Source: the human T2T-CHM13v2.0 reference genome, Homo sapiens
Reading direction: 5' to 3' (one strand)
Assembly (NCBI RefSeq): GCF_009914755.1
Contig: NC_060931.1
DNA: 64,000 nt
This document shows positions 1,631 through 55,700 of this stretch, piece by piece (position 1 is the first letter of the stretch; every line of letters starts with the position of its first letter). The position numbers were made by a program, and so were the translations under genes. A model generated the notes under the pieces. The model had not been told where the DNA came from and searched no databases. It saw only the letters and a list, made by a program, of their open reading frames with translations.

Positions 1631-2227
1631 TAAATTATCTTTGCCAATCTAATTAATTATATTTCATCAGAGTTTTAATTAGTATTTCATTATTAGCTAA
1701 TGGGGTTAATCACTTTTACAAGTCTTTGTTGGCCAGGTTGATCAATTTTAAAAATTGGCTTATCTTCCTCATCCTCATTTATTTGTAGGTATTCTTTATA
1801 TAATCTGGCCTCTGGACAGTTGTTGGTTATAGGTTGTTCATATCTTCTCTGTGGCTTGTCTCTGTATTCTTATGTGATATTTTTTAATGTATAGAAATTC
1901 CTAATTTTAAATAACAAATATTTCTCTTTAGTGCTTTTTGTGAGGTGCTTAAGAAATCCTTATGTACCCCAGATTCATGATGATTCTCCTAAAATCTTTG
2001 GCATTTTACCTTTTTCATTTAGATCTTTAAATCACCTGGAAATGATTTTTGTGTAGGGAGTGTGATATAGTGTTCAATATCACTTTTTCCATATGGATAA
2101 CAAATTTACCTTTTATGACTTATTGGAAAATCTGTTCTGCTATTCCACCTTTCTCATAAATCAATAATCCATATATATGTGAGGCTTGGTTTATGGTCTG
2201 GTGAATCTGTCCCATTGGTCTATTTTG

Positions 2228-2600
2228 CAGGTTCAGCCCTCCAGGAAGCAGACTTTGAGACTCTGATAGAAGGGAGTTTGTTAAGGAGGGTGATTGGGAT
2301 CAACACATGTGGAAGGGAAGGAGCGAAAGCAAGATTGAGCAGAGGGAGAAGCTGGGCTGCAATTCAGTCTCAACAAAGCCTCAGTTGACCATATGGGAAA
2401 ATGAAGACAAGGTGGTTACTGAGAGTTGTTCAGAGTCGGGATGAGGGGGGCATAGCCTTTATATTCCATATCAATTATTGGATACAGGCTCTTTTCAGCT
2501 GAAATAAATAATTTATTCTGGCAGCACACCCAGCTTCTGGGAAAATAAGCTCTTTGATCCCAAAGGGATTTCAGCGGTACATCACAACATTCACTACAGC
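2228..2600. mobile_element. LTR16-like ERVL LTR remnant
   Basis: 'gggatcaacacatgtggaagggaagg...gcagagggagaagctgggctgcaa' resembles the LTR16 family. Boundaries approximate. Confidence 0.5.
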
Positions 2601-3929
2601 CCACCTCTTGAGCTGCTTGGATTTATTTCTTCATTTGAGGAGCAGATCTTCTAGGATTCTGGAAGACCTCTTTTAGAAACCAGTAGGAGGAAAGCGAATG
2701 GGACAAACTACAACCCTTGCAATGTAGGCATTCTTAGGACTGAAACTGATACTCGTAATCTTGCCTCTCTGCTCTCTATTCTAGATTTTCTCACCCTCAT
2801 CTAGCATCTCTGCTGGTCTTGGTGGCTAACTCAGTGTTACAAAACCTTAAACCTTGAGGGTTCTGAATCCTTGGTTACCATGCCCTTCTCAGGCCGTGAC
2901 TGCTGCAATCGTTCATCTACTGTCAAAATTGGCAACAGGGTACTGATTCACCCAAAGATATCACTTACATGCAAAACATTCTTCTCTGCTATCACTGTAT
3001 AACAGCAGCTTCACCTCTCCTGATGGCAGGGTCAATACCCATTGCTGTAACTCCTCTCTTACCTGCTGACCTTTGACACAGATGTTCAAGTGGCTTGAGC
3101 AGCAACCATAGCTTTTGTTTCAGTGCAACTCTTGCTGTGTGTCAAGCACTGTGGAGGGTCTGAAATTTTACATTACTTGCAAGCTAACAAGTTAGCTTGC
3201 TGTAGTTTCACAGACCATAGTGGAAGACTTAAGACTCCAATTCCTAAAGGGCAACATGAAAAAGACCAGGTAACACTTGCACATGCTGTCGGTTGCATTC
3301 TAGGAGAGCAATCCCAAGTGTAGGAAATCTGAATCTTTTATAATGGTTAGCAAGCCTCCTGAGGGAGACACTATTTCCAAAACTGTTCACTGTAAAAATA
3401 ATCTCAAGAAGATATTCTGGATCAAACAAAGTCAGTGCCACTTCTCAGAACAGCTTCAGAAACACAAGAAACCCATGGAGAATTTTCTCCTGGCACTATT
3501 GTTGTTTTATGTTTTGCTTTTACATGTTATAAACCTCACAGTATTTTAGTCATTGTATTTGCTAGAAAAAGTAATTTTCTTTAAAAAATATTTTATATTT
3601 TAAAATTCTCTATTACCTATTTTAAAAATTATTTGTGGTGCTCTCTGTATCGTTCTGTAGATCAAAATTTCCATTTGGTATTATTTCACTTTAGACTGAA
3701 GAATTCTCTTAGCCCTTTTTTTTTAGTTTTGAATCTGCTGGCTATGGATTATTTTAGATTTTATTTACCAGAAAATATATCTTTCTGGATACATTTTTGA
3801 GGAATTATTTTTTTTTTTTACTGGATATAGAATTCTAGATATAGAATTCTGGATATAGTATTTTTTCTTTCAGCATAAATTTTTTTTAACCTAATAATTT
3901 ATTTAATTCTCCTCAAGTAGAGATTATTT

Positions 3930-7522
<3,593 letters not shown>

Positions 7523-8354
7523 TGTTGTTGTTTATTTATTTATTTATTTTATTATACTTTAAGTTTTAGGGTACATATGCACAACGTGCAGGTTAGTTAC
7601 ATATGTATACATATGCCATGTTGGTGTGCTGCACCCATTAACTCGTCATTTAACATTAGGTATATCTCCTAATGCTATCCCTCCCCCCTCCCCCACCCCA
7701 CAACAGGTCCCAGTGTGTGATTTTCCCCTTCCTGTGTCTATGTGGTCTCATTGTTCAGTTCCCACCTATGAGTGAGAACATGGAGTGTTTGGTATTTTGT
7801 CCTTGGTAGTTTGCTAAGAATGATGGTTTCCAGCTTCATCCATGTCCCTACAAAGGACATGAACTCATCACTTTTTATGGCTGCATAGTATTCCATGGTG
7901 TATATGTGCCACATTTTCTTAATCCAGTCTATCATTGTTGGACATTTGGGTTGGTTCCAAGTCTTTGCTATTGTGAATAGTGCCGCAATAAACATACGTG
8001 TGCATGTGTCTTCATAGCAGCATGATTTATAATCCTTTGGGTATATACCCAGTAATGGGATTGCTGTGTCAAATGGTATTTCTAGTTCTAGATCCCTGAT
8101 GAATTGCCACACCGACTTCCACAATGGTTGAACTAGTTTACAGTCCCACCAACAGTGTAAAAGTGTCCCTATTTTTCCACATCCTCTCCAGCACCTGTTG
8201 TTTCCTGACTTTTTAATGATCACCATTCTAACTGGTGTGAGATGGTATCTCATTGTGGTTTTGATTTGCATTTCTCTGATGGCCAGTGATGATGAGCGTT
8301 TTTTCATGTGTCTGTTGGCTGCATAAATGTCTTCTTTTGAGAAGTGTCTGTTCA

Positions 8355-41350: not shown

Positions 41351-46153
<4,803 letters not shown>

Positions 46154-47253: not shown

Positions 47254-48149
47254 TAAAAATATGCCCTTCAAGCATCTTAATTTTGTCTGTGAGCTGTTCT
47301 GTTCCATGTCATCTGGAATAGCTTGCTGAGTAGTGAACTTGTTGGCTACTGTTGTATTAAACTAATTTTTCACATAATAATTAATAAGAGCTGATTCCTG
47401 AGCAATAACTTGTGGCATAATTATTTAGTTTGCAAATTTGCAGACTACTATCTGAAAAATTAATGTCAATCTAGGCTACAGAAATATAGCAATGGTTAGA
47501 AAAAATGAAATTCAAATAATAATAGTCAGCTTTAAGTATGATCCAAAATTGTGAGACATTTTAATGAACTAAACTTTCATTTATCATGGGAGACATCAAA
47601 TTAAATAATGGAGACAGCCTGGGGAATGGTGGCAGATAAATTATTATATAGGCCCAAGTTCATGAAATAATACACAGAAATATTGTTTTCTAGTGGCAGA
47701 TACAAACTCAGGATTAGAATTTACCTTTCTTTCAAGACATGAAGATGCCAGAGCCATGGTCCAAGGTTTAAGCTATTATTTTTTTCATATGTAACTACGG
47801 TATACATAGAAAGTGAATAAGCAACATACCTTACAGCTATATCAATTCAAAATAGGCAAAGATAGGCAATATCTTAGTTGCGATTTTGTACTATAATTTT
47901 ATAAGATTTTACTATTGGGGAAGCTAGGTAAAGAGTACACAGAATATCAAATTATTTCTTACAACTACATATGAATCTACAATAATCTTAAATAAAATTT
48001 TACTCAAAAAATAAAAAACTGCAATGGTATCCATATTTAGAACTGAGCAGTAATAAAAATGCTGCATATAAAGAGTTGTAAGGAACAATGTCTACAATAC
48101 TTGGAGAAATATGTATAGCCTTGGATGTATTTATAAAAATGGAAGAATG

Positions 48150-48351
48150 GGTGTGGCCCGCCGTGCCTTGCCGTGCCTCGCCATGCGCCTGTGTGGCTAA
48201 GGCTTCTGCTGTGTGTGCGCGCAGGTGTGACTTGTGTCCGCAAAGTTTGTGATGTCCGGGGGACTGCATGTACCTTCAGCCGTCCTCCCTTCACACGCAT
48301 GTGGACACAGTGTCACCTCCTCAAGCCATAGGGTGCCGAGTCTAAAGCACA
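48150..48351 (+). other. CpG-rich non-L1 segment inside the L1 TSDs (candidate 5' transduction)
   Basis: Lies between the left TSD copy (48134-48149) and the L1 5' start at about 48352. Confidence 0.65.
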
Positions 48352-54474
<6,123 letters not shown>

Positions 54475-54816
54475 TAAAAAAGGAGGAATGACTGAAAATC
54501 ATGAACCTAATGCCAGTTTAATAAATTGAAAGAAGAATAACAGAATAAAACTGAAATAAGAAGAATGAGAAAAATAAAGATAAGAGCAGGAATTTATAAA
54601 GTGGAAAACAAAATGACAAGAGAGACTCAGTGAAGTCCAAGAGCTGTTTAGATAAAAAGTAATAAAATTGACACATCCATGGAATGATTAACCAAAAAAT
54701 AAAAAAGAAAGGTGGCACAAATAAGCAATATTAGAAACTTTAAAAATGAACCAACTTTAACTGAATAAATTGAAAACTGAGATTAATTGAGCAAATTCTT
54801 AAAAAATATAGCTTAC

Positions 54817-55149: not shown

Positions 55150-55700
55150 AAGTGTTCCAAAATGTTTACCGTAATGGAAATGCAAAGTAAAATTACAACA
55201 AGATAATACTACATGCCTACCAGAATGGCTAAAATTAAAGACTGTTAATGCCAAATGTTGGTGATGATGTGGAGTCAGTGGAGCTCTCATATGCTGTCTG
55301 TGGGAATGTACATTGTTTTAGCCACTTCAAGAAACTATCAGTTTTTGTGAAGTTAAATATATACCTACTCTTTGGATCTGCAATTCTCATGAAAATTATT
55401 AAAGTACTGATACAGGCAACAACATGAATGAATATCACATCATACTGTGTGAAAGAAGCCAGTTACAACAGAAAACATATTGTAGAATTCTACTTATATA
55501 GTTTAAGAATAGGCAAAAGTAATCTGTCATAGAAGTCAGACTGATGTTGGGGGGTGGATATTTTCTGGGAAGGGGTGATGGAAATATTTTATATCTTGAT
55601 ATGGCTAGCGGTTGCACAGATAAGTACATATTAAAATTTCATAAAGGCTTACCCTTAAGTTTGTTCATTGTATACAAGTTATACTGTATTTAAAAAGCCA
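55150..55700 (+). mobile_element. L1ME-type 3' end
   Basis: 'gaaatgcaaagtaaaattacaacaagataatactac...cagaatggctaaaattaaa', then the 3'UTR. Confidence 0.7.

What the first reader, a model, noticed from the sequence alone, without database searches (positions are those of the whole stretch)
48134..48360. About 200 nt of CpG-rich foreign sequence inside the TSDs of the intronic L1: candidate 5' transduction or template switch
Seen: the left TSD copy (48134-48149) lies about 200 nt upstream of the L1 5' end, not next to it. Removing 48150-54490 rejoins an ancient L1 ORF2 remnant (…tgtatttataaaaatggaagaatg|actgaaaatcatgaacc…). The extra piece (ggtgtggcccgccgtgccttgccgtgcctcgccatgcgcc…tgtgtgcgcgcaggtg…) is GC/CpG-rich and resembles a promoter or first exon, within AT-rich DNA. 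Its CpGs look better preserved than those of the adjacent L1 5'UTR. Inference: the source L1 was transcribed from an upstream cellular promoter, or the RT switched to a cellular RNA. Either way a regulatory-type fragment was carried to about 2 kb from the SAMD9 coding exon.
Basis: partly seen in the sequence, partly recalled or inferred. Interest (0 to 1): 0.72.

Follow-up and report, generated by a model that had tools for sequence, protein, structure and literature searches.

The report
L1 carrying a captured promoter fragment
An old full-length L1 retrotransposon in a SAMD9 intron carries about 200 bases copied from a CpG-island promoter on chromosome 13, an uncatalogued example of a recently described kind of chimeric insertion.

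Summary
Window 48150-54490 is one insertion, bounded by target-site duplications at 48135-48149 and 54476-54490 (13 of 15 bases match). Deleting it in silico restores an ancient L1 ORF2 remnant that aligns straight through the junction with a paralogous copy.

Between the left duplication and the L1 5' end (GGTTCCAAGATGG, from about 48357) lie about 207 non-L1 bases. They have GC 0.61 and CpG o/e 0.64; the flanks have GC 0.32-0.34 and o/e 0.12-0.14.

- **Source:** the own-genome search found two other matches to this leader. One is chr13:23955333-23955524 (minus strand, 90% identity). The other is the SAYSD1 promoter CpG island on chr6 (75%). The chr13 locus is an old unprocessed partial duplicate of SAYSD1 that still has a CpG island. 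The leader runs antisense to the SAYSD1-like exon 1.
- **No source L1 or siblings:** no L1 adjoins either locus, and no sibling L1 with the same leader was found.
- **Mechanism:** most likely 5' transduction from a source L1 now missing from chr13. The junction has no splice donor and lies 13-14 nt after an endonuclease-like CT/AAAG site. Template switching and twin priming remain possible.
- **Novelty:** Law & Burns (2026) list 17 chimeras of this class. This one is not in their tables, so it is a new member of a known kind.

The parts
48034..48149 (+). Left part of the ancient L1 ORF2 remnant that the insertion interrupts
   Evidence: Aligns colinearly with paralog L021 up to the junction. 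L021 maps to nt 2132-3800 of the window's L1.
48135..48149 (+). Left target-site duplication, preceded by TTAT, which gives an L1 endonuclease-type site (AT/AAAA)
   Evidence: Matches 54476-54490 at 13 of 15 bases.
48150..48160 (+). First 11 bases of the leader, of uncertain origin (untemplated or cap-derived bases, or diverged chr13 sequence with an indel in a 10-nt tandem unit)
   Evidence: The local alignment to chr13 starts only at 48161.
48161..48357 (+). Leader copied from chr13:23955333-23955524 (minus strand). That region is the CpG-island promoter of an unprocessed SAYSD1 duplicate, and the leader is antisense to its exon 1. Base 48357 (G) could belong to either partner.
   Evidence: (90% identity; only 2 other genome matches).
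48358..54468 (+). Full-length but dead L1 (about 6.1 kb) of the GGTTCCAAGATGG 5'-end type, probably L1PA5/6-like, antisense to SAMD9
   Evidence: 5' end. (80-113 stops per frame; longest open stretch 275 aa). (canonical 3' end ...ACTTAAAGTATA). (an L1PA5 in Law & Burns Table S5 starts with the same GGTTCC signature).
54469..54475 (+). G plus T6 between the L1 3' end and the A-run. Together with the following A6 it forms a T6A6 palindrome in place of a plain poly(A) tail.
54476..54490 (+). Right target-site duplication; its A-run merges with whatever remains of the tail
54491..54750 (+). Right part of the interrupted ancient L1 ORF2 remnant
   Evidence: (31 genome matches at 67-81% identity, the window's own copy included).
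47993..49191 (.). RefSeq 'enhancer' feature from the annotation supplied with the finding; it covers the leader and most of the L1 5'UTR
   Evidence: Hub annotation only. Not tested here.

Best explanation
Window 48150-54490 is a single L1 retrotransposition event, about 20-30 million years old. Its template was a fusion of (a) the first 190-200 nt of an RNA started in the CpG-island promoter of an unprocessed SAYSD1 duplicate on chr13, on the strand pointing away from the SAYSD1-like exon 1, and (b) a full-length L1 of L1PA5/6 type.

The most likely way the fusion arose is classical 5' transduction. A competent L1 had inserted into the chr13 island about 200 nt downstream of that start site, in the same orientation. 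It was read through from the cellular promoter, and the longer RNA was copied into the SAMD9 intron. The chr13 source copy was never fixed or was later lost.

Shown: a single insertion, the chr13 origin, the absence of a splice donor at the junction, and the endonuclease-like site at the junction.

Inferred: the strand and start site of the source RNA, and the former existence of the source L1.

Since insertion the leader has lost about half of its CpGs. Nothing here shows that it has a function.
For: - One event: duplications at both ends, and the empty site is colinear with a paralogous old L1 ORF2 copy.
- Origin: chr13 at 90% identity over 192 nt against chr6 at 75%. The window shares with chr13 a 10-nt block that chr6 lacks.
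- Direction of copying, polarised with chr6: 9 changes are window-derived, 5 of them CpG transitions. Four are chr13-derived and 5 are ambiguous, 4 of those at CpG. This is the pattern expected of a methylated copy of an island.
- Source locus: the chr6 match is the promoter of the only SAYSvFN-domain gene in the genome. The domain exon is at chr6:38929891-38930103 (minus strand), and an intact MEQRLAEFR... exon-1 ORF ends at a GT donor.
- chr13 and chr6 are colinear over more than 6.5 kb at 80-92% identity. The chr13 exon-1 frame is broken, but 500-nt bins of its island still have CpG o/e 0.63-0.82.
- Fusion transcript rather than a late join: the L1 is complete to within a few bases of the longest related 5' ends. 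Law & Burns use this same argument for their 17 cases (section 13).
- No splicing: chr13 continues GCCCC after the junction, with no GT.
- Predicted footprint of a source L1: the junction lies 13-14 nt after CT/AAAG. Only 118 of 2470 positions (4.8%) in the chr13 island have such a site 7-20 nt upstream, and 28 of 231 (12%) in the leader stretch.
- Age: non-CpG divergence is 9 of 142 sites (6.3%), giving about 19-32 Myr. That fits L1PA5/6.
Against: - No L1 sits at the chr13 junction. The sequence there continues as in the chr6 paralog.
- In chr13:23935001-23975000 there are only 3 old truncated L1 pieces (68-79% identity), all in the opposite orientation.
- The own-genome search returned no second L1 with this leader. 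It found 3 matches including the window; the tool states that its counts are lower bounds.
- The endonuclease-site argument was made after seeing the junction, and the site is a weak 4-of-6 match.
- Which strand of the chr13 promoter is transcribed, and where it starts, was not tested. No CAGE data or annotation was available here.
- The first 11 leader bases do not align to chr13.
- The 3' end lacks a clean poly(A) tail.
Confidence: 0.55

Rival explanations
1. Template switching during target-primed reverse transcription. ORF2p copied the L1 RNA to its 5' end, then jumped onto a short promoter-proximal RNA from the chr13 island and copied it to its 5' end.
For: - No source L1 at or near the chr13 locus, and no siblings.
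- The join is exactly at the L1 5' terminus, with at most one shared G. That is where an end-of-template jump would occur.
- Law & Burns list template switching among the accepted routes (Figure 7 legend).
- The U6/L1 literature discusses the same model. For PMC4476161 I saw only the search listing and the start of the abstract.
Against: - In the Law & Burns text, chimeras attributed to RNA ligation or template switching (the U6 type) involve abundant small RNAs and mostly 5'-truncated L1s. Here the partner is an obscure unique RNA and the L1 is full length.
- There are no untemplated bases at the junction.
- The acceptor point coincides with an endonuclease-like site 13-14 nt upstream, expected by chance at only 5-12% of positions.
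Confidence: 0.2
2. Twin priming with a foreign RNA. The leader is an antisense copy of the first ~200 nt (5'UTR) of the plus-strand SAYSD1-like transcript of chr13. It was primed from the top-strand nick, and it was joined end to end with the completed L1 cDNA.
For: - The leader is antisense to the SAYSD1-like exon 1 and ends about 46 nt from its ATG. It could therefore be that gene's 5'UTR read backwards.
- The chr13 plus strand has a C|G step at the junction, which could be a start site.
- Law & Burns attribute antisense-oriented chimeras to twin priming.
Against: - Both cDNAs would have had to reach the very 5' ends of their templates before joining.
- In Law & Burns, pieces that map to the start of a transcript are 'essentially' always in sense orientation with the L1, and their antisense cases did not include first exons.
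- There is no clear microhomology between the left duplication's 3' end and chr13 at the leader's start.
- The coincidence with the endonuclease-like site counts against this model as it does against template switching.
Confidence: 0.07
3. RNA-level fusion in trans before reverse transcription, by trans-splicing or RNA ligation of a chr13 transcript to an L1 RNA.
For: - Law & Burns favour trans-splicing for many of their 17 cases, because 15 donor loci lack an intronic L1.
- The L1 is full length, as in their cases.
Against: - There is no GT (or convincing GC) donor after the leader's end in chr13, and no acceptor at L1 position 1.
- Ligation by RtcB needs a 5'-OH L1 fragment rather than a capped full-length RNA (recalled from the U6/L1 literature, not checked here).
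Confidence: 0.06
4. Two unrelated insertions that happen to abut: a chr13-derived retrocopy fragment and an L1.
For: None beyond the imperfect duplications (13 of 15 bases) and the odd 3' tail.
Against: - The only duplication pair brackets both parts together.
- The last 15 leader bases do not recur after the L1 3' end.
- The leader has no poly(A) tail or duplication of its own.
Confidence: 0.02

Closest known systems
[quoted passage not shown] MAP3K13 exons 1-2 + L1PA5 and FHIT exons 1-3 + L1PA4
   Same: A unique non-repetitive leader of about 150-200 nt sits at the 5' end of a near-full-length L1. A single 14-17 bp duplication brackets both parts. The insertion site has an endonuclease motif. 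The donor locus lacks an L1 today. The leader comes from a promoter or first-exon region rich in regulatory marks (section 13 and Table S5).
   Different: The leader here does not end at a splice donor. It maps to the antisense side of a pseudogene-type CpG-island promoter, not to annotated exons as far as I could tell; no annotation of chr13 was available. This element is not in their tables: 'SAMD9', 'SAYSD1' and 'chr7 931' gave 0 hits in the 6 held supplement files, and the only chr7 L1 in Table S5 is at chr7:7388030. mmc7.pdf could not be read.
U6/L1 and other small-RNA/L1 chimeric retrocopies (template switching or RNA ligation)
   Same: A bipartite insertion made in one target-primed event, with both parts in the same orientation and one duplication around both.
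   Different: In those chimeras the 5' partner is an abundant small nuclear RNA, usually full length, and the L1 part is mostly 5'-truncated (Law & Burns passages). Here the partner is a unique promoter RNA fragment and the L1 is full length. Rfam found no family in the leader: the best hit was 15.5 bits against a gathering score of 120.
SVA_F1 / MAST2 exon-1 capture
   Same: A CpG-island first-exon fragment became the new 5' end of a non-LTR retrotransposon and was carried to new sites.
   Different: That capture was by splicing and founded a family of many copies. Here there is no splice junction and only one copy.
L1 3' transduction (recalled)
   Same: Flanking unique DNA is co-mobilised because transcription does not respect the element's boundaries, and the flank identifies the source locus.
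   Different: It affects the other end of the element. It is caused by read-through of the weak L1 polyadenylation signal, not by an upstream promoter.

Membership tests
L1 5'-transduction / unique-RNA-L1 chimeric insertion | One target-site duplication brackets the non-L1 leader and the L1 together | tested here: met
   48135-48149 against 54476-54490, 13 of 15 bases. The empty site is colinear with paralog L021.
L1 5'-transduction / unique-RNA-L1 chimeric insertion | L1 endonuclease-type cleavage site at the insertion point | tested here: met
   The empty site reads TTAT/AAAAAT at the start of the duplication. The TT/AAAA motif is as given in Law & Burns.
L1 5'-transduction / unique-RNA-L1 chimeric insertion | Poly(A) tail at the 3' end | tested here: inconclusive
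   After ...AAAGTATA come G, T6, then an A6 that merges with the duplication. There is no clean tail.
L1 5'-transduction / unique-RNA-L1 chimeric insertion | The leader maps to a unique locus elsewhere in the genome, in the sense orientation and at the start of a transcript | tested here: inconclusive
   The unique chr13 origin is met. Transcript start and strand at chr13 could not be tested, because no annotation, CAGE or RNA data were available.
L1 5'-transduction / unique-RNA-L1 chimeric insertion | Leader and L1 arrive at the same time in cross-species alignments | not testable with these tools
   No primate genomes are held. Indirect only: leader-chr13 non-CpG divergence of 6.3% gives about 19-32 Myr, compatible with an L1PA5/6-type element.
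Classical cis 5' transduction (read-through from an upstream promoter) | A source L1 directly downstream of the transduced sequence at the donor locus | tested here: not met
   chr13 continues without an L1 and matches the chr6 paralog across the junction. No full-length L1 lies within 20 kb. A lost or unfixed source is assumed. The junction does carry the expected endonuclease-site footprint.
Splice-mediated exon capture (cis- or trans-splicing; SVA_F1-MAST2 type) | The leader ends exactly at a splice donor of the donor gene | tested here: not met
   chr13 reads ...CACAGGGCC|GCCCCATG, with no GT at or next to the junction.
Small-RNA/L1 template-switch or ligation chimeras (U6/L1 type) | The 5' partner is a known small structured RNA (snRNA, 5S, 7SL, tRNA and the like) | tested here: not met
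   Rfam scan of 47900-48700 at E up to 10: 4 chance-level hits, none near its gathering score.
Interspersed repeat that inserted separately | Many dispersed copies, with its own duplication | tested here: not met
   The own-genome search returned only 3 matches, the window itself included. There is no separate duplication.

The most novel reading that the evidence does not exclude
Read on the window's minus strand, the captured piece is the proximal promoter of a SAYSD1-type housekeeping CpG island. In that orientation it points, like SAMD9 itself, toward the single SAMD9 coding exon 2 kb away. It has kept half of its CpGs, whereas the adjoining L1 5'UTR kept a fifth, which suggests long-term partial protection from germline methylation. 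Together with the L1 5'UTR and its antisense promoter it may form the RefSeq-annotated intronic enhancer, or an alternative start region, of the antiviral gene SAMD9. It would also be a first documented case of a promoter-upstream antisense transcript serving as an L1 5' leader.
Probability: 0.1. Interest if true: 0.55.

Novelty: new member of a known kind. Interest (0 to 1): 0.3.

Why it matters
The element shows how L1 can pick up CpG-island promoter sequence and move it into another gene. This route is thought to have renewed L1 5'UTRs during primate evolution and to seed regulatory DNA. Here the donor can be named to the base, and the junction carries a testable footprint of a vanished source element.

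The case was missed by a dedicated 2026 catalogue, probably because the leader matches no annotated transcript. Such catalogues may therefore undercount leaders that come from unannotated promoter-upstream RNAs.

No functional consequence for SAMD9 has been shown.

Tried and rejected
- **Rfam** scan of 47900-48700 at E up to 10 gave only 4 chance-level hits. The small-RNA partner idea was dropped.
- **Flanks against the window's own L1.** blastn, tblastn, Smith-Waterman with a shuffle control (scores 40 and 46 against shuffle maxima 50 and 55) and nhmmer gave nothing significant at the junction. The only hit was an old ORF2 C-terminal piece at 55166-55327. The ORF2 identity of the flanks was shown instead through paralogous copies.
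- **Pfam on six-frame flank translations** was not accepted because of stop codons.
- **Pfam on the two long ORFs** in the chr13 island found 0 families. There is no evidence for a coding gene on the leader's strand.
- **Microhomology at the leader/L1 junction.** I first thought up to 6 nt were shared. Against the 29 related 5' ends, at most 1 G is shared, so it gives no support to template switching.
- **Splice-donor model** was rejected.
- **Literature searches with no useful result:**
  - '5 transduction' + LINE-1 + 'template switching': 0 papers.
  - SAMD9 + LINE-1 + 'antisense promoter': 0 papers.
  - SAYSD1 / pseudogene / 'chromosome 13': none of the 10 listed held 'SAYSD1'.

  I therefore found nothing in print on this element or on the chr13 SAYSD1 duplicate within that library.
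- **APOBEC-type editing** as the cause of the C>T cluster in the leader was considered. The changes are on the strand opposite to the one expected for first-strand cDNA editing, and n = 4, so it is left unexplained.

Full report
**1. What is in the sequence**

The left flank ends ...TTTAT AAAAATGGAAGAATG at 48149. It is followed by GC-rich sequence from 48150.

The L1 3' end (...CCCTAGAACTTAAAGTATA, ending at 54468) is followed by G, T6 and then AAAAAAGGAGGAATG (54476-54490). After that comes ACTGAAAATCATGAACC....

The two 15-mers match at 13 of 15 bases. With up to two mismatches the left 15-mer occurs only three times in the 64-kb window on both strands, against about one expected by chance anywhere. 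Two of the three occurrences are the ends of this insertion.

**2. Where the L1 starts**

A search of the window's own genome with 48340-48560 gave 3980 first-look candidates, of which 40 were scored. Homology to the other L1s begins at query base 18-22 (window 48357-48361) in most of them, and at base 10-14 in four.

Lined up, the 29 fetched copies show a variable G-rich start followed by GGTTCCAAGATGGC. An L1PA5 listed in Law & Burns Table S5 has the same signature.

So the L1 starts at about 48357-48358, is full length (about 6.1 kb), and is dead. Each reading frame has 80-113 stops.

**3. The interrupted ancient L1**

Both flanks are old interspersed repeats.

One paralog, L021 on chrX, holds homologs of window 48034-48069 and of 54493-54749. 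Their spacing is 73 nt in L021 and about 80 nt in the window.

The computed empty site aligns through the junction without a break. By nhmmer, L021 and seven other of the 11 fetched right-flank paralogs match the window's own L1 within nt 2100-4761, which is ORF2.

Direct comparison of the flanks with the window's L1 was not significant.

**4. The leader is foreign and unique**

It has GC 0.606, 12 CpGs and o/e 0.64. The L1 5'UTR has o/e 0.165, and the flanks have o/e 0.12-0.14. Rfam finds nothing.

In the own genome the 203-nt query had only three matches:
- the window itself;
- chr13:23955333-23955524, minus strand, 90% identity, query bases 12-203;
- chr6:38939607-38939770, plus strand, 75% identity.

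Neither of the other two is adjacent to an L1.

**5. What the source is**

The chr6 match lies in a CpG island. On the opposite strand there is an intact ORF, MEQRLAEFRAARKRAG..., ending at a GT donor. About 9.5 kb further along the same strand is the genome's only significant SAYSvFN-domain exon (E = 1.9e-26). This is the SAYSD1 promoter and exon 1. The gene name follows from the domain; my memory of its N-terminus agrees.

chr13:23955134-23961613 is colinear with chr6:38939972-38931475 at 80-92% identity, Alus aside, and a further block lies at 23969215-23969478. The exon-1 frame on chr13 is broken (MEQPLAEFRFARKR...stop), and no SAYSvFN hit exists on chr13.

chr13 is therefore an old, unprocessed, partial SAYSD1 duplicate. 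Its island is still CpG-rich (o/e 0.63-0.82 across 23953501-23956000).

Tudor-domain exons lie 114-127 kb further along chr13 on the plus strand. I take them, from recall, to be RNF17.

The leader is on the strand opposite to the SAYSD1-like exon 1, and its first aligned base is about 46-55 nt from that ATG. It looks like the first ~200 nt of a divergent (promoter-upstream antisense) transcript. The strand and start of the real RNA were not testable here.

**6. Direction and age of the copy**

Differences were polarised with chr6 over 186 aligned columns:

| Class | Count | Detail |
|---|---|---|
| Window-derived | 9 | 5 CpG transitions; 4 non-CpG C>T |
| chr13-derived | 4 | |
| Ambiguous | 5 | 4 at CpG |

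The window shares with chr13 a 10-nt block that chr6 lacks. The window piece is thus a decaying copy of the chr13 island.

Non-CpG divergence is 9 of 142 sites (6.3%), or about 19-32 Myr depending on the rate. The Poisson range on the count is wide (4-15 differences).

The leader keeps 11 of the 22 chr13 CpGs. The L1 5'UTR keeps 8 of 41 inferred ancestral CpG sites, while related copies keep a median of 13. Fisher p = 0.02.

**7. The junctions**

- **5' side.** Clear homology to chr13 starts at 48161. The first 11 bases are unassigned, and a 10-nt tandem unit differs in copy number.
- **3' side.** chr13 reads ...GTCTAAAGCACAGGGCCG|CCCC and the window reads ...GTCTAAAGCACAGGGCCG|GGTTCC. There is no GT donor and no untemplated bases, and at most one shared G.
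- **Endonuclease footprint.** The junction lies 13-14 nt after CT/AAAG. This is what the left duplication of an L1 inserted at that chr13 point would look like. Such a site lies 7-20 nt upstream of only 4.8% of positions in the island and of 12% in the leader stretch.

**8. Mechanism**

Law & Burns (2026) describe 17 hg38 insertions in which unique mRNA or lncRNA starts are fused to near-full-length L1s. For this paper I read the outline and abstract, section 13, the first parts of the discussion and the methods, and searched the supplements.

Their findings:
- 15 of the 17 are in sense orientation.
- 6 end at splice donors.
- 15 donor loci have no L1.
- They argue for fusion transcripts because the L1s are full length, unlike those in U6-type chimeras.

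The present case fits that class but has no splice junction. That leaves read-through from an upstream promoter, template jumping, or twin priming.

I favour read-through, for three reasons:
- the L1 is full length;
- the partner RNA is obscure;
- the junction has the endonuclease-site footprint.

Against it, no source L1 exists at or within 20 kb of the chr13 site, and no sibling was found.

**9. Comparison and novelty**

The kind is known. This instance is not in the Law & Burns tables. 'SAMD9', 'SAYSD1' and 'chr7 931' gave 0 hits in the six held supplement files, and the only chr7 L1 in Table S5 is at chr7:7388030. One supplement, mmc7.pdf, could not be read.

Their annotation step required a BLAST match to RNAcentral, Gencode or Rfam. 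That requirement could explain the miss.

Nothing shows a function for the leader. The RefSeq enhancer label comes from the supplied annotation and was not tested.

**Verdict**

The source is identified, and the mechanism is probably 5' transduction. It is a new member of a known kind, of modest interest.

Noticed in passing
L002-L007: chr13:23955134-23969478 (T2T), compared with chr6:38929555-38939972: An old unprocessed partial duplicate of SAYSD1 on chr13. It is colinear with chr6 at 80-92% identity. Its exon-1 frame is broken and no SAYSvFN exon is detected, yet its CpG island is preserved (o/e 0.63-0.82) and extends about 1.6 kb beyond the duplication boundary. I found nothing in print on it in the library searched.
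   Followed up: partly
window 48161-48345 (leader): Four of the nine window-derived substitutions are non-CpG C>T on the L1-sense strand, all with a 5' C (CC or CCC context): 4 per 45 non-CpG Cs. The L1 5'UTR has 3 per 225 (Fisher p = 0.016). The strand is opposite to that expected for editing of first-strand cDNA. Unexplained, and the numbers are small.
   Followed up: partly
window 54469-54490: The L1 3' end has no plain poly(A) tail. After ...AAAGTATA come G and T6, then an A6 that forms a T6A6 palindrome and runs into the right duplication. The duplication could be read as up to 20 nt (17 of 20) if the T-run is counted. The other L1 in the window (3' end near 7564, minus strand) has an ordinary A-rich tail.
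   Followed up: no
L005 8341-8504 and 9230-9393 (chr13:23953341-23953504 and 23954230-23954393): A 164-nt inverted repeat, 90% complementary with a 725-nt spacer, lies inside the chr13-specific part of the CpG island. Long ORFs on both strands there match no Pfam family.
   Followed up: partly
window 47867-48018: A separate ~150-nt old repeat piece. It had 416 first-look candidates in the genome, of which 40 were scored (the window's own copy plus 39 at 74-80% identity). In several fetched loci it lies just beyond the 3' end of old L1s. This suggests the 3' terminus of an older L1 family nested beside the interrupted ORF2 remnant.
   Followed up: no
window 55166-55327: An old L1 ORF2 C-terminal fragment on the plus strand, matching nt 5371-5545 of the window's L1 (nhmmer E = 1.3e-7). 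It is not colinear with the ORF2 remnant at the insertion site, so the old L1 here is fragmented or there are two elements.
   Followed up: no
window 48358-49260 relative to SAMD9 (minus strand): The L1 is antisense to SAMD9. Any L1 antisense-promoter transcription (a property recalled, not tested) would run through the leader toward the single SAMD9 coding exon at 46128. A search for SAMD9 + LINE-1 + 'antisense promoter' found no paper.
   Followed up: partly
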